Shown: positions 29,113 through 50,515, numbered from the stretch's first letter. The stretch is 55,857 nt of DNA from Ignavibacteria bacterium (GCA_049699815.1 JBNAWO010000003.1:1-55857), one strand, 5' to 3'. Numbers and translations: made by a program. The notes: generated from the sequence alone by a model not told the origin.

Positions 29113-29152
29113 CACATTTCCTCTTTACTTTTTAAATAAATAAATTAATAAA

Positions 29153-29212
29153 GTCACCCTTCGACAGGCTCAGGGTGACAATTTGTCATCCTTTAGTAAA
29201 CTCGAGATGACA
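29153..29212 (-). repeat. Tandem related hairpins (REP-like element or terminator) between GH3 and GH5
   Basis: GTCACCCT (29153..29160) / AGGGTGAC (29172..29179), and TGTCATC (29184..29190) / GATGACA (29206..29212). On the minus strand the second hairpin to be transcribed is followed by TTTATTAATTTATTT. Confidence 0.55.
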
Positions 29213-29240
29213 ATTCAAATAATGAATGACTTTTAAAATA

Positions 29241-31487
29241 TTATTTCAAATAAAACTTTGCTTGAAGATTTCCAATTGTTACGATGAATTCACCAGGTTC
29301 AATTATTCTTTTGTTGTTTATTCCAATGAATGAAAGATGATCTTTGTTGATTTTGAATGTAACGGTTTTTGTCTCACCAGGATTTAATTCAATCTTTTCA
29401 AAACCTTTTAATTGCTTATTTGGACGACTTACCTGGCCATAAACATCTGTAATGTACATTAAAACAGATTCTTTCCCCTTCATTGAACCTTCGTTCTTAA
29501 TGTCAATAGAAACAAGGATTTCGTCGTCTTCCGTCAATTCGGTTTTATTTAATCTCAAATTCGAATAAGAAAATTTTGTGTAACTCAATCCAAATCCAAA
29601 AGGAAGTAATGGATCATATTTATTTTCAGCGAAGTTTTCAATTGGTTTATAATCGTAGTGAACAATTGCGTTCGGATATTTTGGATAAGAAATTGGTAAC
29701 TTACCGCTTGGATTAACATCGCCAAATAAAACATCGACAATTGCATTTCCAGCTTCCATTCCTGGAAGAAAAGCAATCAATGCACCTTTCACATCATTAA
29801 AAATTTTTGTAATCAATCTTGGCCGACCTTCGACCATCACAAGTATAACTGGTTTACCAGTGGCGATTAATTTTCTTGCATAATTCAATTGAGCTTCGGG
29901 CAAAGTCAAATCGTTTATATTGCCTGGTGTTTCACAATAAGCTGGCTCACCAAGACATAGAATTATCACATCCGATTGTCTTGCTTTTTGCAAAGCTGAA
30001 TTTGTATTCAATTCTTTATCAAATGAACATCCTTCTTCAAATAAAACATTTTTCTTACCAATCTTTTCAATAATTGCTTCTAAGATTGTATTTTTTTCTT
30101 GAGGATATAAGTCTTCTTCATTTCCCTGCCAGGTGATTGTCCAACCACCGTTTAAAACTGAAAGTTTATTTGATGTTGGACCAGTTACAAAAACTTTTTT
30201 ATTCTTCTTTAATGGAAGAATATTGTTTTCATTTTTTGCAAGAATGATTGATTCTCTTGCAGCATCGAGATTTACCTGAGTGTGTTCTGAACTTGCAAAT
30301 TTTTCTAAATAATCTTTCTTTGGATACGGATTTTCAAATAAACCAAGTTCAAATTTTACTTTTAAGATTCTGCTTACAGCTTCGTCAATTCTCCACATTG
30401 GCACCGAACCTTCTTTAACAAGCTCTAAGAGTAGTTCATAAAAACTAAAATTGTATGGGACCATACTCATATCAACACCAGCCATAACAGCAATTTTAAC
30501 TGCTTCCTTTGGTGATGAAGCAATTCTATCTCTTGTATGAAGTCGAATTATATCTTCCCAATCTGAAACAACAAAACCATCAAACTTCAATTCTCCTCGA
30601 AGCACTTCAGTTAAAAGATGATAATTTGCATGGCCAGGAATTCCATCAACTTCACTTGAATTGACCATTATTGTTTTTGCTCCGGCTTTAATTCCAGCTT
30701 CAAATGGCGGCAAAAAATATTCTCTCAAAGTTCGTTCAGACATATATGCTGGAGTTCTATCAAATCCATTGAACGGAAAACTATAGCCTACATAATGTTT
30801 CAAGCAGGTTGCGAGTTTATCTGCCCGACTGACATCATTTCCTTGTGCCCCTTTGATGTAAGCCATACCGAGTTGTTGAGCCAGATGAACATCTTCGCCA
30901 AAAGTTTCCCACAATCTTGGCCAGAGAGGTTGACGACCAAGATCCATTACGGGGTAAAAATTCCAGGGAATTCCGCTTGCTCTTGTTTCAAGTGCGGTAA
31001 TTTCACCAATTCTATATGCGATATTTCTATTGAATGTTGAGGCAACAGCCAATGCTTGTGGAAATAAAGTTGCACCTTTTGTATAAGTTGCTCCATGAAT
31101 TGCATCAATTCCATAAATAACTGGTATTCCAAGTCTTGTTTTCTTAGTTGCGATGTCTTGAATTTTTGTAATTATTTCTTGCCAGTAATCGATTGAATGA
31201 GCTACATCGTAAACATTTAGAATTGAACCAATATGATATTTGACAATTGCTTCTTCAAGTTTCTTTTCGTCAAGTTCATGCTTTTGTGTTTTTGTTCCTT
31301 GTTTTTTAGATACAACTTCAAGGGTGATTTGAGTCATTTGTCCAATTTTTTCTTCAATTGTCATTTTTGAGATTAATTCCTGAACTCTCTCATCAATTGA
31401 TTTTGATTGTTGAGAAAAGAGTTGAGATGATATAAACAGGATTAGAATTGAAAAGGCTAAAAATATTTTTTTCATTTGAACACCCAT
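29241..31487 (-). CDS. bglX: GH3 family beta-glucosidase
   Basis: 748 aa with a signal peptide, the nucleophile context GFVVSDWE and a C-terminal Fn3-like domain (ELKGFEKIELNPGETKTVTF). An alternative start is ATG 31475 (MKKIFLAF). Confidence 0.88.
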   Translation of the reverse strand: MGVQMKKIFLAFSILILFISSQLFSQQSKSIDERVQELISKMTIEEKIGQMTQITLEVVSKKQGTKTQKHELDEKKLEEAIVKYHIGSILNVYDVAHSIDYWQEIITKIQDIATKKTRLGIPVIYGIDAIHGATYTKGATLFPQALAVASTFNRNIAYRIGEITALETRASGIPWNFYPVMDLGRQPLWPRLWETFGEDVHLAQQLGMAYIKGAQGNDVSRADKLATCLKHYVGYSFPFNGFDRTPAYMSERTLREYFLPPFEAGIKAGAKTIMVNSSEVDGIPGHANYHLLTEVLRGELKFDGFVVSDWEDIIRLHTRDRIASSPKEAVKIAVMAGVDMSMVPYNFSFYELLLELVKEGSVPMWRIDEAVSRILKVKFELGLFENPYPKKDYLEKFASSEHTQVNLDAARESIILAKNENNILPLKKNKKVFVTGPTSNKLSVLNGGWTITWQGNEEDLYPQEKNTILEAIIEKIGKKNVLFEEGCSFDKELNTNSALQKARQSDVIILCLGEPAYCETPGNINDLTLPEAQLNYARKLIATGKPVILVMVEGRPRLITKIFNDVKGALIAFLPGMEAGNAIVDVLFGDVNPSGKLPISYPKYPNAIVHYDYKPIENFAENKYDPLLPFGFGLSYTKFSYSNLRLNKTELTEDDEILVSIDIKNEGSMKGKESVLMYITDVYGQVSRPNKQLKGFEKIELNPGETKTVTFKINKDHLSFIGINNKRIIEPGEFIVTIGNLQAKFYLK

Positions 31488-31494
31488 TGTTATT

Positions 31495-33300
31495 TCAGTT
31501 TAGTAACAACATTTTTTTGGTCTGATGTGAATTGCTGTTTTGCAAAACATAAAGGTAAACACCCGATGAAGAAGTAAAATTTTTGATTTCATCAAAATTT
31601 AAATTTAGCGAGTAGCTCCCTTCTGTTAGATAGCCCAGTTCTTTTTTGATAATTTGTTTTCCAAGAATGTTGTAAAGTTTGAATGAATAATGATCCGGTT
31701 TGTAAATGTTATAAGAGATCGTTGTGATCCCATTAAAAGGATTTGGAAAGTTTTGATAAAGTTTAAAATTTTTTTCAGGTATAAAATTTCGATCATCAAC
31801 GCCAAGTGAAACCAGATCAATTACGATTCCATTTATCATTGAATTATCTCTGTGCGTTACAAAATAAATATCCAGATAACCATCGTTGATTTGAACATTA
31901 TTAATTTCTTTAACATATGCAGTATTTCTTCCAACTGAAGCATAAATATCAAAATTCTGAAGAACACGCTGTTGTTCAACCCAAACATCGAAAACTCGTT
32001 TACCAGCTTGATTATGATAATTTTCTGCAAACATTAACTTAACATTATAAACTCCGTTTGGGAGACGAACTTTATAGGTAGTCATTCCCCATTTTTCGGA
32101 TTGATATATTTCATCTTCATCTGTGTTGTTAATGCTAAATGAGTAAGATGAATTTCCACCATCAATTGAACCGTAATCAGAAGTTAATGACCAGGTTTGT
32201 TCGGGCAAATAACCGAGTGCAGCAGGTCCACCGCAATTTATCTTCAATGGAAAATTAAATTGAGTTTGTGTAACGATAGATACTGCTTTAGGACTCATTG
32301 TATTTGCGGGATTCCAATCATCTTTTACATTCATTACAACCAAAGTTTTTGGAGAAACAAAATCCCAGCCTGAAACCGTAAGCTCAACTGTTTTTTTATC
32401 TGAAAGCAATTTTGCTGAATCGATTGTTACTCCATAAATGATATAATTAGATTTATTTTGACTTGAAATTTCATCAAGTTCCTCTGAAAAGTTCACAAAA
32501 ATTTTTCCATTATGAACTTTAGCAGATAATAAGACTGGACCTTTGACATCGATGTATCCAATATTTGTGCTGTTTGTCAGGCATAAAATTAAATAACCAT
32601 CTTTGATAACAGCATTTTCTGGAATGAAATCGCAGCCATTCCCAACCCAGGTATGAGTAGCTTTATCCCATCTTGATGTATTCCAGTATTCAAAATCATC
32701 GGACCAAGAAAAAGTGAAGTTGTTTCCTGTTCCGTAATTACCAGAACCTGGTGTATAAAGATAATATTTTACCCAGTCGTAATAGGCAAAAGCCGGAAGT
32801 GCATCAGGGTTAAATTGACCGGCCCAATTTGTGGCTTCTGGATTCCATATATTCATCATCAATTTTTGAGGTTTGTTTAATGTCGGGATATGATCGCCAG
32901 TTTGACGATAAACTTCAACATCATCAACAAACCAGGCGACATAAGTTGGTGTCCATTCAAAAGCGTAAGTATGAAAATCTTCATGAGGTGAGAAAGGTAA
33001 AGGATAATGACTTACATGATTTGTCTGACCCGAAGTAATTGTATTGAATTGAATATCATTAGGATATCGACCAAGAATTTCAATATCAATTTCATTCCAG
33101 TTTTCAATACCACCCGAAAATTCATGATAAGTAAAGAAAGAAGAAAGCATTCCTTCACGATATGCAGATTTCATGCGGACTTCAAATCTACCATAAAGGA
33201 AAGCTTGTTTTGTTCTAAATTCGGCTCCTTTAAAATCTTTTGAGTAGAGTTGTGTAAACGATAAGGTTAAGAGCAGTATCAATAAATTTATTTTCTTCAT
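31495..33300 (-). CDS. GH16 family beta-glucanase (laminarinase/lichenase type) with Ig-like and malectin-like modules and a T9SS C-terminal domain
   Basis: Catalytic EIDIE is encoded at 33079..33093. A malectin-like block follows (KINCGG...YKVRLPNGVYNVKLMFAE...RVFDV). The C-terminus reads FKLYQNFPNPFNGIT. The start is set at MKKINLLILLL (ATG 33300). Confidence 0.85.
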   Translation of the reverse strand: MKKINLLILLLTLSFTQLYSKDFKGAEFRTKQAFLYGRFEVRMKSAYREGMLSSFFTYHEFSGGIENWNEIDIEILGRYPNDIQFNTITSGQTNHVSHYPLPFSPHEDFHTYAFEWTPTYVAWFVDDVEVYRQTGDHIPTLNKPQKLMMNIWNPEATNWAGQFNPDALPAFAYYDWVKYYLYTPGSGNYGTGNNFTFSWSDDFEYWNTSRWDKATHTWVGNGCDFIPENAVIKDGYLILCLTNSTNIGYIDVKGPVLLSAKVHNGKIFVNFSEELDEISSQNKSNYIIYGVTIDSAKLLSDKKTVELTVSGWDFVSPKTLVVMNVKDDWNPANTMSPKAVSIVTQTQFNFPLKINCGGPAALGYLPEQTWSLTSDYGSIDGGNSSYSFSINNTDEDEIYQSEKWGMTTYKVRLPNGVYNVKLMFAENYHNQAGKRVFDVWVEQQRVLQNFDIYASVGRNTAYVKEINNVQINDGYLDIYFVTHRDNSMINGIVIDLVSLGVDDRNFIPEKNFKLYQNFPNPFNGITTISYNIYKPDHYSFKLYNILGKQIIKKELGYLTEGSYSLNLNFDEIKNFTSSSGVYLYVLQNSNSHQTKKMLLLN

Positions 33301-33319
33301 AGAGTAACCTCTTATATTT

Positions 33320-33353
33320 AAAAAACCCGGATTCCTTAGATAGAGAATCCGGG
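33320..33353 (-). terminator. Hairpin plus T-run between the PorV-like gene and GH16
   Basis: Stem CCCGGATTC (33326..33334) / GAATCCGGG (33345..33353). On the minus strand it is followed by TTTTTT (33325..33320). Confidence 0.65.
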
Positions 33354-33366
33354 CGGAGAGCATCTA

Positions 33367-34404
33367 TCAGAAAGAAACGGTAAGAGTAAATTTCTGGATA
33401 TTGTTTAATCTTCCAAAATCCTGATAAGCATAATCCACTTTAACAGCCACATTACCCATAAGATTTTGTTTCAAACCAAATCCAAGAGCAAATGATTCTT
33501 CTGAATCATCGAGAAACAAAGATTTATAACCACCACGCAGGAAAAGAAAATCTTGAAATCCATATTCAAAACCAATATTTACACTTTCATAATCATCGCT
33601 TGGATGGAGCGCATCAAAGGCAAGAGTTAATTTGTGATTTGTTGATCTAATTGGATTGTAAGCTACACCAACTCTAAATGTAAGAGGTAAATCGTAATCT
33701 TTTGTTTCAAGATATGCAGGAATTTTTCCATTATTTCCTGTCGTATATGGGTCGGGATCATACAAAACAAGATTTGACTGACCAAGAAGCTGCATTGTTG
33801 TTCCAAAGTTTGATATCGACATTGCAAGAATTGCATCATCAAATGGAGTTATATATTGTACACCCATATCGATAGCAAAAGCACTTGCACTCATTTTCCA
33901 GATTCCTTGATAAACGAACTTTGGATTGAAACCAATTGAAAATCTATCTGTCAATTGCAAAGCATAAGCGAGACTAATTGCCATATCAGTAGCGGAGAAG
34001 ACTTCGCCTGTTCCCCATGGTTCGTCAATTGTTGTAACTTTCATATCGCCAATATTTGAGCCGGTAAAACTCACACCAATTGTTCCATAATCACCGATGT
34101 TATAACTTACCGCAAAGAAATTATATTTAGTACCCGCAATCCAATTTGTATAATCAATCATCACCTGACCACCTTGAGCTTTTGTTAAACCTGCTGGATT
34201 CCAGTAAATCGAACTGACATCATTAGCAACTCCAACAAAAGCAGAACCCATACTTATTGCTCTTGCACTCTGTCCAATTGAAAGAAAAGTTGCTGCAGTT
34301 GTACCTCTTTTAGAGACATTGCTTTTGAAAGTCTGTGCAAAAGCAAAACTTAAAGTAATGATTAAAATCACAGCTGAGTAAAAAATCTTTTTCATCATTT
34401 TCAT
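33367..34404 (-). CDS. PorV/PorQ-like outer-membrane beta-barrel protein
   Basis: 345 aa with a signal peptide. The N-terminal motif GQSARAISMGSAFVGVANDVSSIYWNPAGL is characteristic of the PorV family. Alternating beta-strand pattern, ending in ..FTLTVSF. Confidence 0.7.
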   Translation of the reverse strand: MKMMKKIFYSAVILIITLSFAFAQTFKSNVSKRGTTAATFLSIGQSARAISMGSAFVGVANDVSSIYWNPAGLTKAQGGQVMIDYTNWIAGTKYNFFAVSYNIGDYGTIGVSFTGSNIGDMKVTTIDEPWGTGEVFSATDMAISLAYALQLTDRFSIGFNPKFVYQGIWKMSASAFAIDMGVQYITPFDDAILAMSISNFGTTMQLLGQSNLVLYDPDPYTTGNNGKIPAYLETKDYDLPLTFRVGVAYNPIRSTNHKLTLAFDALHPSDDYESVNIGFEYGFQDFLFLRGGYKSLFLDDSEESFALGFGLKQNLMGNVAVKVDYAYQDFGRLNNIQKFTLTVSF

Positions 34405-34411
34405 CTCTCCG

Positions 34412-37400
34412 CTATTTAATTAATGCAAATTTGCCGATGTATTCTCCAATACCGGGAGCTTCAACATGATAAACATAGACACCGTAAGCGGCCTCCATTC
34501 CATCGTCAGTAATTAAATTCCAGGATACAGTTCCATCGAGATAACCAGAGTCTTTACGAATAGTTTTTATCAGCTGACCCGAAAGAGTATAGATTCTAAT
34601 CGTACACTTACTCGGAAGATTAATGAAATCAATTTTTCTTTCACCACGACCGGTTGTGTTCAGATTTCGTTTTTCCCAGGCAGCGGCACCCAGGTAAGGA
34701 TTAGGGACTACATCAATTTTTGATAGTTGTGTTTTAGCGAGTGAATTATCTGTAGTTGCAGCTTTTGTGGTAACAACAAATTTATCGCCTGTCTTAAATG
34801 GCTTTCTTGTCGTAATTACAAATTTGTCCCCACCTTTTGGATATTCAGGTTGAACATTTGGATCAAAAGGTGAATTGTAAGTAATATTCCAGGCAAATCT
34901 AATATTAGCAGGAGTTATTATTTTATCTTTGAACTCAAGAATTTGAATCACATCGCCAAGTGAAAGAGATTGAGATTGATCTCTATCCTGAACAGCGATC
35001 TTACTATATTTTTGTTCTGTTTTATTCCAGACCTTAAAGTTTACCGGAAATCTTCTATAAAGTGGTGGCGAAGAAATGTAACAGGTATCAGCTGGACCAT
35101 CATAAAATGTAATTTCGTAATCAGCGGGCCAGGGAACTCCACGAATTGGGGTCCGATCTGGAAATACATTCATTACTAAATTGCTATTACCAACTAACCA
35201 CCCGGTAAGAGAATCAATAACGGTGATAGCAGTATCATTTAAAACAGTAACTGCCAATCCATCAAATGGTGGACTTACTCTACCTTCTCCAATATAAGCT
35301 GAATCAACTTTTAAGATTGTATCTATCTCACTCCCTTTTTTTCTTACAACATCGAAACCCAGTGTTTTATAAAGAGGATAACCGTTAGTTGATTTGAAAA
35401 TAAATTCATATTGATTACCTTCTTCAACAATTTGAGGATTGTAAACATGAAATTGAAGTGAACCAGTACCAATTCCTTCGGTAACTTTTTTAGTATCACC
35501 GACTATCTGCGGTGGAACGTAACCAGCAACAGGTGCATTTGGAGTTACAACAGCGCAGTTAATATCAACAAATTGAACATTACCAGCATAATCGACAGTT
35601 ATAATTTTAGTACACTCGCTTGGCTGCAATCCAGTGGTACCATAGTTTGGATCACCCATATCGTATGAGACACAGGCATAATAATAAGTTACTCCATTTT
35701 TAACATCTGTATCGACATATGAATATTGTAGACCTGTGTCGTCACCTCTCCAGAAATGAGCGCCATTAATTCCAACTGGATCTGGACCTTTTATTCCATC
35801 AATCTTATCGAATTGAGCGATAGGTTTCCAGTATCGTGGAAGTCCACGAGAGTCTGTAATAACTTTGATGTCATTAAATTCGGGTTCCTGACTTCTATAA
35901 ATTAAATAGCCTTCAAAGTCCTTTTTGTAACCTTTGGTTGGGTCATTATCCTCATATCCTAAGAATGGGTCTCGAGATTCTTCAGCAATATTATCCCAGT
36001 AAAGAAATACTTTACCATCACCGGGAACAGCCGTTAACTTAGGTTTAATTGGAGGTTTTGAAAAATTATAATTGGCATTATAAATCTGTTGAACTGTTTC
36101 TTTATTAAAAACTAAGTCATTCAGGTCTTCACCGAAAACCAGAGCCATAGAGAAACGTTCTCTTAATCCTTTATAAAGCGGGAATGGACCAGAGGCGAAA
36201 ACCATTGAAATATTTGATCTCTGTAATGAAGTATCAAAAGTACCAGCAACCATTTTAAGCCACATAGATTCATCATCTTTGGGCCATCCTCCACCGGTAC
36301 CACCTTCACCAAGTCGGTAAATTGAAACAGCTGTCAAACCAATCTGGTCTGATTCATCTTTATCTGTTTTATCAAAATGTGGTTCACCATCAGTTGGTAG
36401 TCCATCACCTTCACCTTCATCAGGACCATTATATTGACGATCCCAAGGACCAACCCCATCTTTACCAAGATCATCGTTTAGAGGTTCGTTTTCTTCACGG
36501 TCCCATTTTCCGTTTCCGTTAAGGTCAGTGTAAGGGATCCAATCTCCATCATTATCTATTCCATCATCTCTCCTCTCATCAATCATACCATCTTGATCGT
36601 CATCAATTCCATTCCATGGATTACCCGGACTTTCCAGGTAAGCATATCCATACATACCAGTTTTCCATGCATCAGGTACACCAATTCCATCGTAATCATA
36701 GCAATAAGCTAAATCAAGTTTTAAATCAAAGGAAGCACAATCATCACCTGAGTCCTGAGTCCCACCAACGCCACAATCAGTATAAAATCCAAATACTGTG
36801 GTGGGATAATCAAAATCTGATATGTTCACAATGTCGTAGTGCCAAAAGATTATATCTTCAGCAAGAACATGAGACCATTGGAAACCACGAACTTCAATGC
36901 GAAGTCCCAGACCACCACGATCCGAATCAGCTGCGATTGGAAAATACAAATAAGGCGGTCTAGTGAACTCTTTATCTCTCGAATCATCCATAACGAAGAA
37001 AGTTTCAAAATCGGAATTCATTACTCCTCGACCGAAATAGCCGTACCAATATCCATTCCATTCAGGAGTTAAATTTAGAGCACGTGGCCAGATAGTTGGC
37101 CATGATTTTGGATCAGTATTAATTGCTGGTTTTGTAGAAGATGGATTAACATAACCTGGAACAGGCTCAAGTCCCCAGATTTCTCCTGTCACTGGATCTT
37201 TATCCATCCATTCACGATAAGAAGATTCAAGCGGATGAATTTTTTGTCCATTTCCAGGTGCCGTAACTTCGGAAGCAATCAATACACAAACACCATCAAG
37301 ATATGAGTGACCACTTCCTTTAGGCCATTCACCAGATGGTTGATAAGGCCATTGACCAACTTCACCATTATTATAAAATAAAGTTCGAATTTGATTACCG

Positions 37401-37534
37401 TCCATTACACCTTCACGGCGATACTGGATATTTCCTTTGGGTTCATCTCGATAAAGTTGAATTTGAGGTGGTACCTGTGAATATGTATATTCAGTCAAAA
37501 CTAAAAGAAAAATTAAAGCTATTTTCCGTATCAT
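34412..37534 (-). CDS. 1040-aa secreted protein with an acidic Ca-loop cluster, Fn3-like segment and T9SS C-terminal domain
   Basis: Signal peptide; IDDDQDGMIDERRDDGIDNDGDWIPYTDLNGNGKWD...; an Fn3-like stretch (GDGKVFLYWD...GYLIYRS...GVTYYYACVSYD). The C-terminus reads VVPNPYLG...IRIYTLSGQLIKTI...GVYVYHV. No catalytic motif was recognised. Confidence 0.7.
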   Translation of the reverse strand: MIRKIALIFLLVLTEYTYSQVPPQIQLYRDEPKGNIQYRREGVMDGNQIRTLFYNNGEVGQWPYQPSGEWPKGSGHSYLDGVCVLIASEVTAPGNGQKIHPLESSYREWMDKDPVTGEIWGLEPVPGYVNPSSTKPAINTDPKSWPTIWPRALNLTPEWNGYWYGYFGRGVMNSDFETFFVMDDSRDKEFTRPPYLYFPIAADSDRGGLGLRIEVRGFQWSHVLAEDIIFWHYDIVNISDFDYPTTVFGFYTDCGVGGTQDSGDDCASFDLKLDLAYCYDYDGIGVPDAWKTGMYGYAYLESPGNPWNGIDDDQDGMIDERRDDGIDNDGDWIPYTDLNGNGKWDREENEPLNDDLGKDGVGPWDRQYNGPDEGEGDGLPTDGEPHFDKTDKDESDQIGLTAVSIYRLGEGGTGGGWPKDDESMWLKMVAGTFDTSLQRSNISMVFASGPFPLYKGLRERFSMALVFGEDLNDLVFNKETVQQIYNANYNFSKPPIKPKLTAVPGDGKVFLYWDNIAEESRDPFLGYEDNDPTKGYKKDFEGYLIYRSQEPEFNDIKVITDSRGLPRYWKPIAQFDKIDGIKGPDPVGINGAHFWRGDDTGLQYSYVDTDVKNGVTYYYACVSYDMGDPNYGTTGLQPSECTKIITVDYAGNVQFVDINCAVVTPNAPVAGYVPPQIVGDTKKVTEGIGTGSLQFHVYNPQIVEEGNQYEFIFKSTNGYPLYKTLGFDVVRKKGSEIDTILKVDSAYIGEGRVSPPFDGLAVTVLNDTAITVIDSLTGWLVGNSNLVMNVFPDRTPIRGVPWPADYEITFYDGPADTCYISSPPLYRRFPVNFKVWNKTEQKYSKIAVQDRDQSQSLSLGDVIQILEFKDKIITPANIRFAWNITYNSPFDPNVQPEYPKGGDKFVITTRKPFKTGDKFVVTTKAATTDNSLAKTQLSKIDVVPNPYLGAAAWEKRNLNTTGRGERKIDFINLPSKCTIRIYTLSGQLIKTIRKDSGYLDGTVSWNLITDDGMEAAYGVYVYHVEAPGIGEYIGKFALIK

Positions 37535-37551
37535 CCTTCATCTCCTGATTA

Positions 37552-40275
37552 TTAAAGTTGAAATCCAATACCAAGACGTATTTGTCTTGGTGATGAATAC
37601 ATTGCTGGATTTTTGATATACTCATCGATTGTATTTAAGCCAATTATTTCACCAGCATATTTAATATTCAAATCTGCTGTAGCTCTTCCAGTGGTTGCAT
37701 AAACGCCAACTTCATTTTTGATATCAAGGACATTGTAAATAATAGCGTATGTATAGAGATTTAGACCAAAGACTTTGAAGTATTTATCAGCTCTTAAATC
37801 GAGATTAATAAAGACTGGTTTTCTTCCACCATTTTCAAACCGCACACCACGAGATATTTTGATATCTTCGGTATAAGGAGTCCCTGAGCCATATTGGAAA
37901 ACTAAACCAGCAGACCAATTACCTGGTAAACCGACATTTACACTCAAATTCAAAGTATGTCTTTGATCCCAGTCAAGTGGAATTACTGTTTTCGACTCTT
38001 CAATTGGTGGATTTGTTTGATTGTAATTATAAACAGCATAAGGATCTGAAGCATTACCTTCAGCGATTTGGTAAGTGTAGTCTAACTTAGCACTAAAGTA
38101 ATTAGAGAATCTCTTATCCAGTGTAATTATTAATCCTCGAACATTTGCATAATCTCGATTAATGAATCGAGCATATTTAAAACCTTCATAAGTATTCACA
38201 ATCTCCATACCTAACCAGTTACGAATATCCCTGTAATAAATCGAAGCATTCAATGCGAGATCTTCCATTAAAACCTGCTGTAAACCTAATTCATAAATCA
38301 CATTTTTTTCTGCATTTAAATCTGGATTACCAATAATTGAACTTAAAGCATTACCAGGTTGAACAATGAAGTCAGGATTTGCATAAAGATTTTCAAAGTT
38401 TGGAATCTTGAAGAAATGTCCATAGGAGAATCTGATTATACCTTTATCAGTAATTGGGAAAGAAACTCCAAGTCTTGGACTTACTTGCATCTTTGGTTTA
38501 ACCTTTACCCATTCATTATAACCGGGGAAATTTGGATTTCGAGTAGGATTTCTTTTATCTGCCGGCATTTTAGCATTAGCATTGAAATAATCAAATCTCA
38601 CTCCAGCGTTTATAATCATTATGTCATATTCCATTTTATCTTGAATATATGCTGAGGCTTCGAAAGGAAATCTTGTGTATTCAATGTGAGAACCACGATC
38701 GGTGATTGTACCTTTATCAGGATAACCTGGAGTGAAAACTTTATTACCAAGACTATCTACAACTCCATCAGTCAAATTAATTAAATCTTTATAATGGTTA
38801 TAAATGTGATGATATCTTAATTCGAAACCTGCTCCAATTTTATGTTCTTTACTAACTTGGGAAGAAATTGACCATTGTGCAATATAAGATTTGGTGAAAC
38901 GAGTGTATCTTCCACCTTGATTTCCCCCTGATCTAAAAGTATAACCTGAGATCGCAATTCCCTGTCTTGGATCAACATATCTTGGATCAAACTCATCTTC
39001 ATATAAATAACCTTTGAAATTATAATTATTAAATGTGAATTTGAAACTCTGACTTGTGTTAGATGAAATGTAATGAGTTATCTGAAAATTATGAATCCAG
39101 TCATTACCATAATGGGTCATCATTCCATCCGGCGTCCAAGACCAGTAGTGATCATAATATTTGTTTCGTGTTTTGTCATAGAATATAGAATATGAAAATA
39201 CAATGGATGGCAAAGCATAAGTCAATTTCCCATTTGCAGAATATTTTGTGAATGGATTCATCGGAACATAGGCACCATCTCCTGTGTTTCGAGGAATCCA
39301 TATTGATTTATTCAAAGGATCAGGATAATAAGGAACATCATCCCAGGTATTATAAACTCTTTTGCCGTAAAGGTGACCGATATCGTCATAATAACGACCA
39401 GTTAAAAAATAATAAAGATTTTTAAAAGGTTTTACAGGTCCACTTATAGTTATTTGTAAATTTTTCTGAGAGATTCTATCAATTTTATCAAGATTTCTAA
39501 AAATATCAGTGTGAGATGTGACAAAATTTCCTGTATAAGCACTTATATCTGTTTTGAATTTATCAGAACCCCCTTCAGTAACAATATTTACAACTCCTGA
39601 AAGTGCCTGACCATATTCAGCATTAAATGTTCCAGTAATAATTTCCATTTGACGAATGGAAGTATTCTCAATTTCAATATTAAATCCACCATTAAAAGGA
39701 TCAGTAACCATTACACCATCAATTAAATACGCGACATCATTTGCACGACCACCACGAAAATGTCCATCTATTACTCCAGCTTGAAGATTTACAATTCTGT
39801 TGACACTTTCGACCGGCATCATTTTAATATCATCAGAAGAAATTGTCACAGAAGTAGATGTCAAATCTTTCTGAACAAGTGGTCTTTCGGATGTAACAAC
39901 AATTTCTTTTTCAAGCTGAATGACAGAACTTGTCATTTTAATATCGACACGGGTCGTCAAATCGATTTTAACAATTACATTTTCAACAATTGTTTTTTGA
40001 TAGCCAACAGCTGAAGCAATCAATCTATATTTACCTGGTGGGACATTATTAATGGAATAAAAACCGTCTACACCTGCAGCAGCACCAAAATATGTTCCTT
40101 CAATAATAACATTAGCCCCAATTATTGGTTCGTTAGTTTGAGCATCTGTTACTTTACCAACAATTTTACCTGTTGTACCGGCATTTAAATTATCTCCAAA
40201 TAAAATCAGAACCAGAAAAATCGAAGCTAATAATTTTAATATCTGATTCTCATTCAGCAAATTTTTTACTTTCAT
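37552..40275 (-). CDS. TonB-dependent receptor with an N-terminal CarboxypepD_reg-like domain
   Basis: 907 aa with a signal peptide, GKIVGKVTDAQTNEPIIGANVII, a plug region (VESVNRIVNLQAGV, FRGGRANDVAYLIDGV) and a long beta-barrel. Confidence 0.85.
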   Translation of the reverse strand: MKVKNLLNENQILKLLASIFLVLILFGDNLNAGTTGKIVGKVTDAQTNEPIIGANVIIEGTYFGAAAGVDGFYSINNVPPGKYRLIASAVGYQKTIVENVIVKIDLTTRVDIKMTSSVIQLEKEIVVTSERPLVQKDLTSTSVTISSDDIKMMPVESVNRIVNLQAGVIDGHFRGGRANDVAYLIDGVMVTDPFNGGFNIEIENTSIRQMEIITGTFNAEYGQALSGVVNIVTEGGSDKFKTDISAYTGNFVTSHTDIFRNLDKIDRISQKNLQITISGPVKPFKNLYYFLTGRYYDDIGHLYGKRVYNTWDDVPYYPDPLNKSIWIPRNTGDGAYVPMNPFTKYSANGKLTYALPSIVFSYSIFYDKTRNKYYDHYWSWTPDGMMTHYGNDWIHNFQITHYISSNTSQSFKFTFNNYNFKGYLYEDEFDPRYVDPRQGIAISGYTFRSGGNQGGRYTRFTKSYIAQWSISSQVSKEHKIGAGFELRYHHIYNHYKDLINLTDGVVDSLGNKVFTPGYPDKGTITDRGSHIEYTRFPFEASAYIQDKMEYDIMIINAGVRFDYFNANAKMPADKRNPTRNPNFPGYNEWVKVKPKMQVSPRLGVSFPITDKGIIRFSYGHFFKIPNFENLYANPDFIVQPGNALSSIIGNPDLNAEKNVIYELGLQQVLMEDLALNASIYYRDIRNWLGMEIVNTYEGFKYARFINRDYANVRGLIITLDKRFSNYFSAKLDYTYQIAEGNASDPYAVYNYNQTNPPIEESKTVIPLDWDQRHTLNLSVNVGLPGNWSAGLVFQYGSGTPYTEDIKISRGVRFENGGRKPVFINLDLRADKYFKVFGLNLYTYAIIYNVLDIKNEVGVYATTGRATADLNIKYAGEIIGLNTIDEYIKNPAMYSSPRQIRLGIGFQL

Positions 40276-40376
40276 AATTCTATCCCTGAATGATTTATAA
40301 TAATTTCAAGTTATATCTAATTTCAAACTTCAAAAAGCAGGAAGTTCAAATAAATTTTATATAAAATAACAGATGC

Positions 40377-40397
40377 CAGGCTGAGATTTTCAGCCTG
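40377..40397 (-). terminator. Hairpin after the 831-aa protein gene (possible terminator or attenuator)
   Basis: Stem CAGGCTGA (40377..40384) / TCAGCCTG (40390..40397) with a 5-nt loop. The downstream minus-strand sequence is T-rich, but not as an immediate run. Confidence 0.45.
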
Positions 40398-40428
40398 ACA
40401 TCAATTAAAAAATATCACACCAAAAGAA

Positions 40429-42924
40429 TTACTTAATTAACATCATCTTTCTTGTTTGATTGAATGTACTTCCGGTCAATCTGTAATAATAGACACCGCT
40501 TGTCAATTTGGATGCATCAAATTTGACTTTATAAAGACCAGATTGTAATTCGCCCTCAATCAAAGTCGCAATTTCTTTACCCAGCACATCATAAGCTTTT
40601 AAAGTTACATAATCATTTTTTGGCAGAGCAAATTGAATTTCTGTTGTTGGGTTAAATGGATTTGGATAGTTCTGATAAAGTGTATAATTCTTTACAACAA
40701 CATCTTCTCTTTCAACAGATAAAGGATCCCACAAATTACCAATCCAGGTAAATAACCATCTTGAAACATCACGCCAGGATTGATCCTCATTGTAAGGTGA
40801 ATAAGTAAGAATACCCTCTCTTTCTGGACCGTTATCTCTATCATTGATTGAGAAATCAATTGGAATCCTATAGCCTTCAACCGGGGTAAACAAATTATCA
40901 TTACCTAATGCAGCAAGTGCAGTCCAGGGGATTCTTGCTTCCACAACATAACCAGTTGGGAATTTTGGTCCAAAATAGTAGTTCGGTCCTATTGTATCGA
41001 GCACTCCACCTGGATTATCACCAAGAATTCTATCAACATAAAATCTTAAGTGATAATCTGGCTGAGCTCCTCTTTGATAATTTGTGTGTGGGATACCACG
41101 CCCGTTATAAAGACCAATAAACAAATCTGGGGCATCATCTAACCAAGTTTGAGAAGGATGACCAGAAGGAGCAAATACATCATCATTGATATCAAAAGCG
41201 ACATAAAGATAATTCTGATCTGCTGCAAGGTAAGCATTGACAGAAAGATCATTATCACCATTAATAGATGTATTGGCTACAATGTGTCCAGTTCCGTCAG
41301 ATGGGAACATTCTAAATGGTCTAATGTTTGACCATTCACTTAGGTCACCATCCGGATTAAATGTTGTAGTAGGTGCATTAGTAAGATTAATTGTTGCAAC
41401 ACCTTTTGCGGTATTTGTAACTGGTCCAGCGTTTGTGCTTACATCACTTTCATTTCCTGACGCATCAACGCAGGTAACAGCATAATAATAAGTTACACTT
41501 TGATTTGTATTTGGAGCAAAGAGCAGATGTTCAATTAATTGATTATTTTCAGCAACACCAAGTTTAACGACTTCAACACCAGGTGCATTAATATCAGTAA
41601 TTGGATTCTTGCTGTAATAAATATTGTACTTTTCACCTACTTCATTTGGAACATCCTGCCAGGTAATAATATTTTGAAAAGTTCCTTGAATTGCTAAAAC
41701 TCCCTGTGGTGGATTTGGTGGGATTACATCAAATTCGGGATTCCCTGTCCACCAATCTGTTATCCAAATTACCCTACCAGCAACACCAGAAGCTTGAGCC
41801 ATCAATCCAACAATATGAACCGAAGAAGAATCAAAATTGCTCGTATTATCTTGATATTCCATTTCTCTTAATGGGAAGTAATAAGTATGCCATTGACCGT
41901 CATCAATTGGCTGGAAAACTTTTCCAACTTTTCCAGGACCACCTTCAAATTGAATTCTGAGAGGACCAGTACCTGCTGGACATTTTAATTTAATCTGACA
42001 GGTATCTTTTTGCCAGGCACCTGCTAAATTAAATGGAGGATTAATATCCATACCCCATCCTGTCCAGCCGTTACCCCATTCATCACCTTGAGTCCATTTG
42101 ATTGCATTCGAGTTAGGAACAGGACCAGCACCTTTTACAACTTCAACAGCTGATTGTCCCCAAGCCCAGACATTTGCAATTTGACTGGGAAAAGTAATCC
42201 CATTGAAAATTACAGCCGGAACAGCTTTAAGACCAAATCTTCTGAATCCATCAAACATCACAACAAGTGAATCCGCAGGAAGATTTTGACCAGGAGTATA
42301 ACCTGCTGTCACTGCTGCGATGTTAAAGCCAACTATTTTATCAGCATCAAATTTTTTATTGTTCCAGAAAGAAGAACCACCCCAGTTTGCAGGGAAAATT
42401 ACAAATCCTTGATCGTTTGGATCTGTATTCCCTTCAGAATCAAGAATCTTGAGAGGAATACGCAATTCAACCCAATCTGTTGTTGCGTCTAAAATTACAT
42501 CCTGTTGATAAATCCATTCTTCAATATTTGATGCTGCAGTCGGGCGATCCTTTAAGTGAATTCTGAATACCATATTTGTCGGGATGGTTGGAGGTGTAAC
42601 AACTTTAATCCAGATTGCAAGTGAATCTGATATTGACCAATCCCATGGTAAAGAATCAACTGGTAAAGTCTTGATCAACTGAGCATAACTTCCCCACTCA
42701 TGATGAGCTCCAATAACAAATTTAACATAAGCGGAACCAGTACCCTCAACTTTATCAGTTGTATTTAATGAATAGTCAATTCGGCTTGGCGGACCTTCTG
42801 TAAGGAATTGCCAGGTATTGTCCTGCGATAGGTCTGTATCAAAGCTCTCGATTATATGGCTCTGAGCATATGTAATCGAGGCAAAGAACAGGACAAGAAG
42901 AAAAGTATTAAAGAGTTGTTTCAT
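40429..42924 (-). CDS. 831-aa secreted multi-domain putative glycan-binding protein with a T9SS C-terminal domain
   Basis: Signal peptide; an Fn3-like segment (YNIYYS...VTYYYAVTCVDASGNES); a CBM9/DOMON-like region (DGDLSEWSN...LYVAFDINDD...EARIPW). The C-terminus reads YTLYQNYPNPFNPTT. Confidence 0.65.
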   Translation of the reverse strand: MKQLFNTFLLVLFFASITYAQSHIIESFDTDLSQDNTWQFLTEGPPSRIDYSLNTTDKVEGTGSAYVKFVIGAHHEWGSYAQLIKTLPVDSLPWDWSISDSLAIWIKVVTPPTIPTNMVFRIHLKDRPTAASNIEEWIYQQDVILDATTDWVELRIPLKILDSEGNTDPNDQGFVIFPANWGGSSFWNNKKFDADKIVGFNIAAVTAGYTPGQNLPADSLVVMFDGFRRFGLKAVPAVIFNGITFPSQIANVWAWGQSAVEVVKGAGPVPNSNAIKWTQGDEWGNGWTGWGMDINPPFNLAGAWQKDTCQIKLKCPAGTGPLRIQFEGGPGKVGKVFQPIDDGQWHTYYFPLREMEYQDNTSNFDSSSVHIVGLMAQASGVAGRVIWITDWWTGNPEFDVIPPNPPQGVLAIQGTFQNIITWQDVPNEVGEKYNIYYSKNPITDINAPGVEVVKLGVAENNQLIEHLLFAPNTNQSVTYYYAVTCVDASGNESDVSTNAGPVTNTAKGVATINLTNAPTTTFNPDGDLSEWSNIRPFRMFPSDGTGHIVANTSINGDNDLSVNAYLAADQNYLYVAFDINDDVFAPSGHPSQTWLDDAPDLFIGLYNGRGIPHTNYQRGAQPDYHLRFYVDRILGDNPGGVLDTIGPNYYFGPKFPTGYVVEARIPWTALAALGNDNLFTPVEGYRIPIDFSINDRDNGPEREGILTYSPYNEDQSWRDVSRWLFTWIGNLWDPLSVEREDVVVKNYTLYQNYPNPFNPTTEIQFALPKNDYVTLKAYDVLGKEIATLIEGELQSGLYKVKFDASKLTSGVYYYRLTGSTFNQTRKMMLIK

Positions 42925-44588: not shown

Positions 44589-44617
44589 AAAAGATATTTT
44601 TAGTCATTTTTGACTAA

Positions 44618-44633
44618 GTCAATTTTAATGCCA
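44618..44633 (-). promoter_or_regulatory. Candidate -24/-12-like (or -35) promoter element upstream of the SSS symporter gene
   Basis: The minus strand reads TGGCATTAAAATTGAC, with GG and TTGA at sigma-54 spacing but GA instead of GC. Its 3' end is 30 nt from the ATG at 44588. It shares GG.ATTAA..TTGACTT with 47458..47473. Confidence 0.35.
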
Positions 44634-44967
44634 TCCCTAATCACAAGATAAATTCGAAAATCAAAGAATAATCAAAGAGACTTCAACTGAAAATTACATC
44701 AATTATAATTTTGATAAACTGAATTTATTAAATTGATAAAGCACCTGATTAAACCTGGCTAAATTCAAAAAAGGATAAGCCGAACAACCCTCCCATTGAA
44801 TTTGAAAAATATTAATAATTTCCCGGAAAGATTTGTTCAGCTAATCCAAATTTCGTCAAGTGCGTCCCTAATTTTTTGACCAGTAAATCAAGTTAAAAAA
44901 AAATCTTTCGTATTATTATCCACATATTCATTTAAACAAGCATTCCTGTTGTGAAAGCAACAACCTT

Positions 44968-45010
44968 ATTTCTATTAACCATAGAAATTTTATACTTAAC
45001 AAATTTCTAT
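44968..45010. repeat. Nested inverted repeats built from ATTTCTAT
   Basis: ATTTCTAT (44968..44975), ATAGAAAT (44981..44988), ATTTCTAT (45003..45010). The outer pair extends to 10-bp arms, ATAGAAATTT / AAATTTCTAT. Confidence 0.55.
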
Positions 45011-45095
45011 TTCGAGATACAATCATTCATTATTACCATTTTCAATTAAGTTAATCGAGAAATAGAAAAGTCAATTATTAGACATTGATTTCTTA

Positions 45096-47423: not shown

Positions 47424-47457
47424 AGAGTCCACCTGATTATTAATGATTTTTTAGAAA

Positions 47458-49037: not shown

Positions 49038-49046
49038 TGCTCTTCC

Positions 49047-50513: not shown

Positions 50514-50515
50514 AG

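What the first reader, a model, noticed from the sequence alone, without database searches (positions are those of the whole stretch)
33367..40275. SusD-less outer-membrane module: TonB-dependent receptor + 1040-aa T9SS cargo protein + PorV-like barrel
Seen in sequence: three consecutive minus-strand genes are separated by only 17 and 7 nt. The first is a 907-aa TonB-dependent receptor with a CarboxypepD_reg-like N-domain, the architecture of SusC-type transporters. The second is a 1040-aa secreted protein with a dense acidic DxDxDG-type loop cluster, an Fn3-like segment and a T9SS sorting domain, but no catalytic motif I can recognise. The third is a 345-aa beta-barrel with the PorV/PorQ-type motif (ISMGSAFVGVANDVSSIYWNPAGL). 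A hairpin plus T-run (33320..33353) closes the trio. No SusD-like (TPR lipoprotein) gene occurs anywhere in the window, although glycoside hydrolases surround the trio. Established knowledge: Bacteroidota PULs are defined by SusC/SusD pairs, and PorV shuttles T9SS cargo at the outer membrane. Inference: the giant T9SS cargo protein occupies the SusD position. It may be the surface glycan-capture partner of the receptor, with a dedicated PorV-type barrel for its export or anchoring. This would be an alternative PUL architecture that, as far as I know, has not been characterised.
Basis: partly seen in the sequence, partly recalled or inferred. Interest (0 to 1): 0.78.

Follow-up and report, generated by a model that had tools for sequence, protein, structure and literature searches.

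The report
SusD-less TonB receptor–T9SS cargo–PorV-like barrel module
Next to beta-glucan-degrading enzymes, this Ignavibacteria genome encodes a conserved outer-membrane gene set: a TonB-dependent receptor, a large uncharacterised secreted protein and a PorV/PorQ-type barrel. The same set recurs in hundreds of related genomes and probably imports sugars without the usual SusD lid.

Summary
Three minus-strand genes, separated by 17 and 7 nt and bracketed by terminator-like hairpins, encode:
- a 907-aa TonB-dependent receptor (TBDR);
- a 1040-aa protein with no Pfam family ("X");
- a 345-aa PorV/PorQ-family barrel.

The trio is not a local oddity.
- X has relatives in 4,686 50%-identity clusters.
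- In 80 loci from Ignavibacteriota, Calditrichota, Kryptoniota, Marinimicrobia, Stahlbacteria and Rhodothermales, a barrel follows X in 71 of 72 testable cases. A TBDR precedes X in 64 of 65.
- The loci carry differing CAZyme sets.

- The TBDR lacks the SusC/RagA signature.
- X's sorting domain resembles type A but carries a conserved 15-residue insertion. It scores below family cut-offs, and its best matches are the retained C-termini of PorU and PorZ.
- The module has a fourth gene. A fast-evolving CBM-bearing T9SS protein sits directly upstream in 52 of 57 loci and is the better glycan-capture candidate. X evolves as slowly as the receptor.

Best model (inferred): the T9SS exports X, its retained C-terminal domain tethers it to the cognate barrel, and X acts as the receptor's conserved extracellular partner.

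A diverged paralogous module exists in non-CAZyme contexts. I found no functional study. I rate it a new variant of a known kind.

The parts
40429..42924 (-). 831-aa secreted protein with CBM9 and a canonical type A T9SS CTD. It is the fourth, fast-evolving member of the module and the likely surface glycan-binding protein.
   Evidence: Pfam CBM9_1 at 2e-14 and Por_Secre_tail at 1.6e-8. A canonical-CTD protein lies directly upstream of the TBDR in 52/57 loci. Of 38 such proteins, 24 have CBM9 and 4 have CBM_4_9. Mean pairwise identity outside the CTD is 25%.
40372..40402 (-). Terminator-like hairpin (13 pairs plus T-rich tail) between the CBM9 gene and the TBDR gene.
   Evidence: sequence read. 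It is only a consensus match.
37552..40275 (-). 907-aa TonB-dependent receptor. It has a signal peptide, a CarboxypepD_reg-like domain (38-124), a TonB-box-like E-I-V-V-T-S-E-R-P (124-132), a plug and a barrel.
   Evidence: Pfam. No SusC/RagA signature. The TonB-box-like motif is conserved across 59 receptors.
36050..37462 (-). X residues 25-495: beta-supersandwich domain with an inserted cluster of invariant acidic, Ca-binding-type loops (about 301-420, nt 36275..36634).
   Evidence: AF2 domain model with pLDDT 90.3 and pTM 0.89. Foldseek probability 1.0 to the N-terminal supersandwich domains of GH94, GH149, GH116 and GH15-type enzymes. Invariant D/E/G columns.
35615..36049 (-). X residues 496-640: Fn3-like beta-sandwich.
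   Evidence: Model secondary structure. Fibronectin hits 3t1w and 1fnf. Mean pairwise identity 60%.
34730..35614 (-). X residues 641-935: variable beta-sandwich region, the least conserved part of X.
   Evidence: Mean pairwise identity 35%, against 50% for the whole protein. All-beta in the model.
34415..34729 (-). X residues 936-1040: atypical T9SS CTD. It is type A-like with a conserved 15-residue insertion (AAAWEKRNLNTTGRGERK) after the PNP strand.
   Evidence: NF033707 PorU C-terminus at E 3.4e-5, TIGR04183 at 18.2 bits (cut-off 23), PorZ C-terminus at E 0.0028. Alignment with six canonical CTDs of the window. None of 77 X proteins hit a canonical CTD HMM. Mean pairwise identity 61-62%.
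34412..37534 (-). Whole gene for X (1040 aa), an uncharacterised family. The signal peptide ends ..YS|Q and there is no lipobox Cys.
33367..34404 (-). 345-aa PorV/PorQ-family (FadL-like) outer-membrane barrel, the proposed anchor for X.
   Evidence: NF033709 at 217.6 bits against 90. PorQ 105 bits (cut-off 220) and PorV 74 bits (cut-off 250). Closest solved chain is F. johnsoniae PorV 6h3i_F at E 1.3e-10. It follows X in 71/72 cases.
33325..33354 (-). Terminator-like hairpin (11 pairs, 6 G-C, then TTTTTT) after the barrel gene.
   Evidence: It lies upstream of the likely true start of the GH16 gene (Met22 of the listed ORF, from the translation).
21463..24879 (-). 1138-aa distant paralog of X. 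It shares the X-type CTD with the insertion but has no receptor or barrel of its own here.
   Evidence: X-HMM E 1e-26. It is 42% identical to X over the last 105 aa. Its family sits in the same four-gene module elsewhere. A 78% ortholog is likewise alone.
25436..33363 (-). Downstream enzymes of the locus: GH16+malectin+CTD, GH3, GH5+CBM6+CTD, CotH+CTD.
42960..51841 (-). Upstream genes of the locus: SSF symporter, GH2+CTD, sigma54-type response regulator, histidine kinase and solute-binding protein. The last three are a probable sensor system.
   Evidence: They are kept in orthologous loci L001-L003.

Best explanation
The region encodes the outer-membrane core of a SusD-independent, TonB-dependent glycan import system, here for beta-glucans. 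It has four parts.
1. A CBM9-bearing protein with a canonical type A CTD. The T9SS exports it and it is displayed on the surface, where it captures the polysaccharide.
2. A TonB-dependent receptor that takes oligosaccharides into the periplasm.
3. X, an all-beta protein with a supersandwich domain, Ca-type acidic loops, an Fn3-like domain, variable sandwiches and an atypical CTD. The T9SS also exports it.
4. A PorV/PorQ-family barrel that keeps X at the surface by holding its uncleaved CTD non-covalently. PorQ holds PorZ, and PorV holds PorU, in the same way.

Tethered beside the receptor, X acts as its conserved extracellular partner. It would serve as a lid or hand-over platform, filling the place of the SusD lipoprotein. 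Neighbouring T9SS-exported GH16, GH5 and GH2 enzymes cut the polymer. GH3 and the SSF symporter finish uptake.

**Shown:** gene content, domain assignments, conserved synteny, co-variation of the three proteins, and the atypical conserved CTD.

**Inferred:** T9SS export of X, CTD retention, X-barrel binding, X-receptor contact, and the substrate.
For: **Linkage.**
- Gene gaps are 17 and 7 nt in the window. Medians are 14.5 and 13 nt in 58 complete trios.
- A barrel follows X in 71/72 cases and a TBDR precedes X in 64/65. The single exception (L070) still holds all three genes in another order.

**Co-evolution.** Pairwise-identity matrices of TBDR, X and barrel correlate at r = 0.91-0.96. Mean identities are similar at 47%, 50% and 50%.

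**X's C-terminal domain.**
- It aligns with type A CTDs but carries a conserved insertion.
- It misses the canonical CTD HMM in 0/77 cases.
- Its best matches are the C-termini of PorU and PorZ (Foldseek 5m11 and 6za2). These are the two T9SS proteins whose CTDs are retained and bound to PorV and PorQ (review PMC10202324).
- It is the most conserved part of X at 61%. Canonical CTDs of the upstream proteins in the same loci are 46% identical.

**Barrel.** It is a PorV/PorQ-family member but not a PorV or PorQ ortholog. The window has seven canonical type A CTD proteins, so a T9SS is in use.

**No catalytic domain in X.** X has a supersandwich domain typical of the non-catalytic domains of glycoside hydrolases and phosphorylases. 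It has no catalytic domain.

**Glycan context.**
- GH16, GH3, GH5 and GH2 lie in the window.
- Distant loci carry LacI, sugar ABC transporters, GH94, GH130, GH2 and GH144-like genes.
- Two modules lie on one contig (L024 and L080).

**Paralogous module.** A deeply diverged family keeps the same four-gene design.
Against: - No direct evidence shows that X binds the barrel or the receptor.
- The correlated evolution could reflect shared descent of linked genes alone.
- X's CTD falls below family cut-offs, so T9SS dependence is itself an inference.
- The window's own X paralog (21463..24879) and its 78% ortholog lack a nearby barrel and receptor. Barrel tethering may therefore not be obligatory, or one barrel may serve several cargos.
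- Paralogous modules in L084 and L085 lie among housekeeping genes. The design is therefore not glycan-specific, and the role of X may be more general than a SusD substitute.
- A terminator-like hairpin separates the CBM9 gene from the trio in the window.
Confidence: 0.55

Rival explanations
1. X is a new surface enzyme, such as a glycoside hydrolase, a lyase or another carbohydrate-active catalyst. The receptor simply imports its products. The barrel only exports or anchors it.
For: The N-terminal domain matches domains found in GH94, GH116, GH149, GH15-type and PL enzymes. Invariant polar and aromatic residues (E177, R216, Q219, D265, E301, W145, W163) could form an active site. X is surrounded by enzymes.
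Against: - The matched parts are the non-catalytic supersandwich domains. No (alpha/alpha)6 or TIM-barrel catalytic domain is present in the all-beta model.
- No Pfam or NCBIfam enzyme family is hit.
- X is kept at about 50% identity across loci whose CAZymes point to different substrates: GH16/GH5, GH130, and GH94 with GH144-like. X-like proteins also occur in non-CAZyme modules.
- Most invariant residues lie in Ca-type loops.
Confidence: 0.12
2. X and the barrel are a self-contained T9SS cargo-anchor pair, for example an adhesin or a cell-surface layer component. They are merely co-transcribed with a receptor and make no physical or functional contact with it.
For: Cognate cargo-barrel pairs without a receptor are known: PorZ-PorQ, and type B CTD proteins with PorP/SprF (PMC10202324). 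X is a long multi-domain beta protein like many adhesins.
Against: - A receptor of one specific clade precedes X in 64/65 cases, with a median gap of about 14 nt.
- Receptor and X identities correlate at r = 0.96, the highest of the three pairs.
- The receptor is also kept in the diverged paralogous modules.
Confidence: 0.15
3. The barrel is not an anchor. It is a locus-specific PorV-type shuttle or a FadL-like channel. It serves secretion of all the CTD enzymes of the locus, or import of a small hydrophobic compound. X is an ordinary A-LPS-anchored glycan-binding protein.
For: The barrel's closest solved relative is the shuttle PorV. The locus encodes many type A CTD proteins.
Against: - The barrel is always next to X, not next to the other CTD proteins.
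- The X-type CTD with its conserved insertion, distinct from the canonical CTDs of the same locus, points to a specific pairing.
- The barrel scores below the PorV equivalog cut-off, at 74 bits against 250.
Confidence: 0.13

Closest known systems
SusC/SusD (and RagA/RagB) pairs of Bacteroidota polysaccharide utilisation loci
   Same: - A TonB-dependent transporter with an N-terminal CarboxypepD_reg-like domain is followed directly by a gene for a large extracellular partner.
- The pair is embedded among CAZymes, regulators and inner-membrane transporters.
- Several paralogous copies occur per genome.
   Different: - The receptor lacks the SusC/RagA signature.
- The partner is not a TPR lipoprotein. 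It is an all-beta protein with a signal peptidase I signal and a T9SS-type CTD.
- A third gene, for a PorV/PorQ barrel, is obligatory.
- The partner evolves as slowly as the receptor.
PorZ-PorQ and PorU-PorV of the T9SS attachment complex
   Same: - A T9SS cargo whose CTD is not removed stays bound to a FadL-like 14-stranded barrel of the PorV/PorQ family (PMC10202324).
- X's C-terminus scores best against the PorU and PorZ C-termini.
   Different: - PorU and PorZ are single-copy secretion-system parts. One is a sortase and the other an A-LPS carrier.
- X is neither. It has no Cys/His dyad or propellers.
- X is multi-copy, lies in nutrient loci and is linked to a TonB-dependent receptor.
Type B CTD proteins with cognate PorP/SprF barrels (e.g. 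SprB-SprF)
   Same: The genes for a cargo with a non-standard CTD and its own outer-membrane barrel are adjacent. The barrel is proposed to anchor the cargo, whose CTD is not cleaved (PMC10202324).
   Different: X's CTD is a modified type A, not type B. X has no PF13585 hit. The barrel is of the PorV/PorQ family, not PorP/SprF. No receptor is involved in the known pairs.
Rhodothermus marinus alginate utilisation locus (tonB - hypA - hypB), PMC9530828
   Same: [quoted passage not shown] All lie inside a studied polysaccharide locus.
   Different: hypA is shorter (about 727 aa) and carries a canonical type A annotation. Whether it is an X relative was not tested here. The authors call these genes hypothetical and assign no role.
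Non-SusD surface partners of TonB-dependent transporters (BtuB-BtuG in Bacteroides; TbpA-TbpB in Neisseria) and BamG-BamH
   Same: - A surface-exposed protein caps or feeds a TonB-dependent transporter (from my own knowledge of BtuBG and TbpAB).
- In Bacteroidota BAM, a FadL-like 14-stranded barrel (BamG) holds a surface protein (BamH) by its extracellular loops (PMC12578637).
   Different: Those partners are lipoproteins exported by other routes. None uses a T9SS CTD plus a dedicated PorV/PorQ barrel.

Membership tests
SusC/RagA-type TonB-dependent transporter | Plug plus TonB-dependent beta-barrel with an N-terminal CarboxypepD_reg-like domain | tested here: met
   PF13715 at 4.4e-18, PF07715 at 4.6e-6, PF00593 at 1.5e-24. 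A TonB-box-like motif at 124-132 is conserved.
SusC/RagA-type TonB-dependent transporter | Match to the SusC/RagA signature model (TIGR04056) | tested here: not met
   It is not among the NCBIfam hits even at E <= 10 (HMMER filters may hide very weak matches). No SusC or RagA chain appears among PDB sequence matches.
Canonical PUL (SusC/SusD pair) | SusD/RagB-family lipoprotein gene next to the transporter gene | tested here: not met
   The next gene is X, which has no Pfam family. No SusD-like protein is among the window ORFs of 400 aa or more. No SusD family is among the 25 most frequent families in 91 flanking proteins of distant loci.
PorV/PorQ family barrels (NF033709) | Score above the family cut-off over the full length | tested here: met
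   217.6 bits against 90, covering residues 35-345. PF19572 PorV at 3.6e-10. 6h3i_F PorV at E 1.3e-10.
PorV proper / PorQ proper (equivalogs NF033710, NF033711) | Score above the equivalog cut-off | tested here: not met
   PorV 73.9 bits against 250. PorQ 105.3 against 220. PorV2 85.4 against 325.
T9SS type A CTD cargo (TIGR04183 / PF18962) | C-terminal domain matching the type A model above its cut-off | tested here: inconclusive
   For X, TIGR04183 gives 18.2 bits against 23 and PF18962 gives no hit. The domain still aligns to six canonical CTDs through the PNP, I-x-I-Y and G-V-Y-x-Y/K-x-x-L-I-K motifs, with a 15-residue insertion. Foldseek to PorZ 5m11 has probability 1.0.
T9SS type A CTD cargo | Secretion depends on the T9SS | not testable with these tools
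   This needs a T9SS mutant or proteomics.
Retained-CTD cargo bound to a cognate PorV-like barrel (PorZ-PorQ type) | Cargo and barrel form a stable complex through an uncleaved CTD | not testable with these tools
   Only indirect evidence is available: adjacency in 71/72 cases, a CTD more conserved than the rest of X, and best matches to the PorU and PorZ C-termini.
Type B CTD + PorP/SprF pairs | Type B CTD (PF13585/TIGR04131) on the cargo | tested here: not met
   X has no such hit.
GH94/GH116/GH149-like glycoside hydrolases or phosphorylases | N-terminal beta-supersandwich domain | tested here: met
   Foldseek probability 1.0 and TM (query) 0.30-0.40 for the domain model.
GH94/GH116/GH149-like glycoside hydrolases or phosphorylases | (alpha/alpha)6 catalytic domain with catalytic residues | tested here: not met
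   The full model is all-beta apart from a few short helices. There are no Pfam GH hits.

The most novel reading that the evidence does not exclude
Outside the Bacteroidota proper, in Ignavibacteriota, Calditrichota, Kryptoniota, Marinimicrobia, Stahlbacteria and Rhodothermota, the main TonB-dependent nutrient importers may be assembled by the T9SS. A PorQ-like barrel would tether a conserved supersandwich protein (X) over a dedicated receptor as a lipoprotein-free alternative to SusD. A swappable CBM-bearing T9SS protein would provide substrate capture. A sister module would do the same job for a non-glycan, housekeeping cargo.
Probability: 0.4. Interest if true: 0.85.

Novelty: new variant of a known kind. 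Interest (0 to 1): 0.72.

Why it matters
- **PUL annotation.** PULs are found and counted by their SusC/SusD pairs. A widespread SusD-less module would go uncounted by that method. X has 4,686 clusters at 50% identity and at least 594 confirmed matches among the representative genomes of 185,579 species. Glycan-uptake capacity in Ignavibacteria, Calditrichota, Marinimicrobia and relatives may therefore be underestimated. These groups are abundant in sediments, hot springs, bioreactors and the deep ocean.
- **T9SS role.** If the model holds, it would link the T9SS to nutrient import. The T9SS would build part of the transporter, rather than only exporting enzymes.
- **Annotation gap.** X is a large protein family with no Pfam or NCBIfam model. 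It would gain a testable role.
- **Experimental access.** Cultured hosts make the model testable: Ignavibacterium album (80% ortholog), Melioribacter, Caldithrix and Rhodothermus marinus.

Tried and rejected
1. **Complex prediction.** I built 22 paired fusions of barrel, 50-residue Gly/Ser linker and X's CTD.
2. **Whole-protein Foldseek of X.** The result was dominated by generic Fn3 and Ig arrays with very low TM-scores. A separate N-terminal domain model was needed.
3. **Sigma54 promoter search.** I looked for a promoter (TGGCAC-N5-TTGCW) that would tie the trio to the upstream sigma54 regulator. There were 19 matches against 18.8 expected, and none in the relevant intergenic regions. I dropped this line.
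4. **Promoter and terminator scans.** Counts equal the shuffled expectation. The hairpins are only suggestive.
5. **Sequence search of X against the PDB.** Nothing was found.
6. **Reaching R. marinus hypB.** I searched with a Rhodothermales barrel. The 120 listed hits were all at least 59% identical and none was named R. marinus. Homology of hypA to X remains open.
7. **Literature.** Nine searches found no paper that assigns a function to this gene set. The library lacks most subscription journals.
8. **X as PorU-like sortase or PorZ-like protein.** Rejected. There is no invariant Cys or His and no propellers. X is also multi-copy and lies in nutrient loci.

Full report
**1. Observation**

The three ORFs are exactly as described. 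On the minus strand they lie at 37552..40275 (907 aa), 34412..37534 (1040 aa) and 33367..34404 (345 aa), with gaps of 17 and 7 nt.

- *Receptor.* It has a CarboxypepD_reg-like domain (38-124), a plug and a TonB-dependent barrel.
- *The 1040-aa protein ("X").* It hits no Pfam family. No NCBIfam family reaches its cut-off.
- *The 345-aa protein.* It matches the PorV/PorQ family model at 217.6 bits (cut-off 90). It stays below the PorV, PorQ and PorV2 equivalog cut-offs. Its closest solved relative is Flavobacterium johnsoniae PorV, 6h3i_F, at E 1.3e-10.
- *Hairpins.* Terminator-like hairpins lie just after the barrel gene (33354..33325) and just before the receptor gene (40402..40372). Such sites are no more frequent here than in shuffled sequence, so they are only suggestive.
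- *SusD.* No SusD-like protein is encoded in the window.
- *Organism.* It is an Ignavibacteria bacterium. X is 94% identical to a protein of an Ignavibacteria MAG and 80-81% identical to proteins of Ignavibacterium album.

**2. Surroundings**

The trio sits in a beta-glucan-type locus. On the minus strand, the genes upstream of the trio are:
- a solute-binding protein, a histidine kinase and a sigma54-type response regulator;
- GH2 with a CTD;
- an SSF symporter;
- an 831-aa CBM9 protein with a CTD.

Downstream of the trio are:
- GH16 with malectin and a CTD;
- GH3;
- GH5 with CBM6 and a CTD;
- CotH with a CTD;
- a 1138-aa protein.

Seven proteins of the window carry a canonical type A T9SS CTD. 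A T9SS is therefore clearly in use.

**3. The trio is a conserved module**

*Size of the X family.*
- An exhaustive search of 50%-identity representatives gives 4,686 proteins at E <= 1e-3 and 682 at E <= 1e-30.

*Taxonomic spread.* The 80 best loci come from MAGs labelled as:
- Ignavibacteriota, including Melioribacter;
- Kryptoniota;
- Calditrichota, including Caldithrix;
- Neomarinimicrobiota;
- Stahlbacteria;
- Rhodothermales and Rubrivirga;
- loosely labelled 'Bacteroidota' MAGs.

*Synteny.* I used HMMs built from the window's three proteins.
- A barrel gene follows X on the same strand in 71 of 72 cases with enough downstream sequence.
- A receptor gene precedes X in 64 of 65.
- The one exception (L070) has the order X-X-receptor-barrel.
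- Median gaps are 14.5 and 13 nt in 58 complete trios.
- Two modules lie on one contig (L024 and L080).

*Flanking genes.* Orthologous loci keep the whole beta-glucan locus. Distant loci carry other sets: LacI regulators, sugar ABC transporters, GH94, GH130, GH2, GH144-like 'Glycoamylase', Laminin_G_3 proteins with CTDs, and SurA-like PPIases. The module is thus reused in loci for different glycans.

**4. A fourth member**

In 52 of 57 loci, the gene directly upstream of the receptor on the same strand encodes a protein with a canonical type A CTD. Of 38 such proteins, 36 have PF18962, 24 have CBM9 and 4 have CBM_4_9.

Over the same 34 loci, this protein is 25% identical outside its CTD and 46% within it. 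X is 49% identical outside its CTD and 61% within it. The fast-evolving, CBM-bearing upstream protein therefore behaves like a substrate-specific surface glycan-binding protein. X behaves like a core machine part.

**5. Anatomy of X**

*Models.* The AlphaFold2 model has pLDDT 82 and pTM 0.69. A separate N-terminal domain model has pLDDT 90 and pTM 0.89. Both show an all-beta protein.

*Residues 25-495: beta-supersandwich.*
- With Foldseek probability 1.0, the domain matches the N-terminal non-catalytic domains of GH94, GH149 and GH161 phosphorylases, GH116, a GH15-type dextran dextrinase and the cyclic glucan synthase phosphorylase domain.
- Inserted in it (about 301-420) is a cluster of acidic loops whose Asp, Glu and Gly residues are invariant across 24-31 diverse homologs. 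This is typical of Ca2+-binding loops.

*Rest of the protein.*
- An Fn3-like domain spans 496-640.
- A variable beta-sandwich region spans 641-935, with only 35% mean identity.
- A flexible stretch follows, then the C-terminal domain.
- No catalytic domain is present.
- X has a signal peptidase I-type signal peptide and no lipobox.

**6. The C-terminal domain**

- *Family scores.* It scores 18.2 bits against TIGR04183 (cut-off 23) and nothing against PF18962. Its best NCBIfam matches are the C-termini of PorU (E 3.4e-5) and PorZ (E 0.0028).
- *Structure.* Foldseek also finds PorZ (5m11, probability 1.0) and PorU (6za2).
- *Alignment.* Aligned with six canonical CTDs of the window, it shares the PNP strand and the later motifs. 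It carries a 15-residue insertion (AAAWEKRNLNTTGRGERK). The W-E...G-R-G-E-R core of that insertion is nearly invariant in the family.
- *HMM test.* None of 77 full-length X proteins hits an HMM built from canonical CTDs.
- *Precedent.* According to the review PMC10202324, PorU and PorZ are the T9SS proteins whose CTDs are not cleaved and stay bound to PorV and PorQ. The review also notes that type B CTD cargos depend on adjacent cognate PorP/SprF barrels. It suggests that cognate PorV-like barrels protect CTDs from cleavage.

An unusually conserved, modified CTD encoded next to a dedicated PorV/PorQ-family barrel fits that precedent.

**7. The receptor**

Domain order is SusC-like. A TonB-box-like E-V-V-V-T-A-E-R-P motif is conserved at 124-132. 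No SusC/RagA signature model is hit even at E <= 10. The only PDB sequence matches are plug-domain similarities to YncD and PqqU. It works like a SusC but is not a member of that family by the test available.

**8. Co-evolution**

Pairwise-identity matrices of receptor, X and barrel across 59 modules correlate at r = 0.96 (receptor-X), 0.92 (receptor-barrel) and 0.91 (X-barrel). Mean identities are similar. This is compatible with an obligate complex, but shared descent of linked genes would also produce it.

**9. A sister module**

The 1138-aa protein at 21463..24879 is a distant X relative. It scores E 1e-26 against the X-HMM and is 42% identical in the CTD, including the insertion. Here, and in a 78% ortholog, it has no receptor or barrel.

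In L084 and L085, however, members of its family sit in the same four-gene order:
- a canonical CTD protein;
- a receptor (E about 1e-130 to the window's receptor HMM);
- an X-like protein;
- a barrel (E about 1e-72 to 1e-76).

Their neighbours are housekeeping genes: thioredoxin, serA and LPS genes. The design is therefore older and more general than glycan loci.

**10. Mechanism**

The best-supported model has four steps.
1. The T9SS exports the CBM protein, which captures the polymer at the surface.
2. The T9SS also exports X, whose retained CTD tethers it to its cognate barrel.
3. X sits beside or over the receptor as a conserved lid or hand-over platform. Its variable middle region possibly tunes specificity.
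4. The receptor imports oligosaccharides, using TonB.

Steps 1, 2 and 3 are inferences. Gene content, synteny, domain folds and the special CTD are shown. I put confidence at about 0.55 for the whole model. Confidence that the genes form one functional outer-membrane module is about 0.85.

The rivals are less well supported, for the reasons given under each:
- X as an enzyme;
- a cargo-anchor pair unrelated to the receptor;
- the barrel as a locus-wide shuttle or channel.

**11. Prior knowledge and novelty**

Nine full-text searches found no functional description.

- *Rhodothermus marinus.* The gene map of the alginate locus (PMC9530828) shows a TonB-dependent receptor, then a T9SS type A sorting-domain protein (2181 nt), then a PorV/PorQ family protein. 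All are labelled hypothetical. I could not test whether that middle protein is an X relative.
- *Ignavibacterium album.* A beta-1,2-glucan cluster paper mentions only a possible TonB-dependent transporter (PMC8861115).
- *Melioribacter roseus.* It has one classical SusCDE locus (PMC3534657). SusD is therefore not absent from the phylum.

I rate this a new variant of a known kind: a TonB-dependent glycan importer with a surface partner, joined to T9SS cognate-barrel anchoring. X is a large unannotated family. Interest is 0.72.

Noticed in passing
window 21463..24879 (-): A 1138-aa distant paralog of X has the same modified CTD but no receptor or barrel nearby. In other genomes its family sits in the same four-gene module among housekeeping genes (L084, L085). 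A 78% ortholog (L086) is also alone and lies next to a transposase fragment.
   Followed up: yes
window 47580..51841 (-): A solute-binding protein, a histidine kinase and a sigma54-type response regulator lie upstream of the locus and are kept in orthologous loci L001-L003. They are probably the sugar sensor. No sigma54-type promoter motif was found above chance.
   Followed up: partly
window 25436..27121 (-): A CotH-kinase-family protein with a T9SS CTD lies inside the glycan locus and is also present in L003. It is an odd member of a CAZyme cluster.
   Followed up: no
window 37478..37534 and 34336..34404 (-); alignment A1: The signal peptides of X and of the barrel look set to be cleaved just before a Gln (..YS|Q, ..FA|Q), and the family consensus is A|Q. 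This matches the 'Q-rule' described for Bacteroidetes (PMC5837995), seen here in Ignavibacteria and allies.
   Followed up: no
L055 16437-17825, L056 6436-7830, L047 784-2433, L071 7950-9491: Genes for SurA-like or PPIase chaperones lie between X and the barrel, directly after the barrel, or (in L047) upstream of the CTD-protein gene in several distant modules. They may be a dedicated periplasmic chaperone.
   Followed up: partly
L070 (X-X-receptor-barrel) and L055 (receptor-X-X-PPIase-barrel): These are rearranged or duplicated versions of the module. Two X genes share one barrel.
   Followed up: no
window 33301..33366: The listed GH16 ORF (31495..33363) probably starts at its Met22 (nt 33300). 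The hairpin after the barrel gene lies in the 5' extension of that ORF.
   Followed up: partly
window 8698..15532 (-): This is an outer-membrane biogenesis cluster: an LpxC-FabZ fusion, LpxD, BamA with POTRA repeats, and undecaprenyl diphosphate synthase.
   Followed up: no
window 51956..53400 (+): An N6/N4 DNA methyltransferase gene is followed by a 179-aa ORF with no Pfam hit. They may be the remnant of a restriction-modification pair.
   Followed up: no
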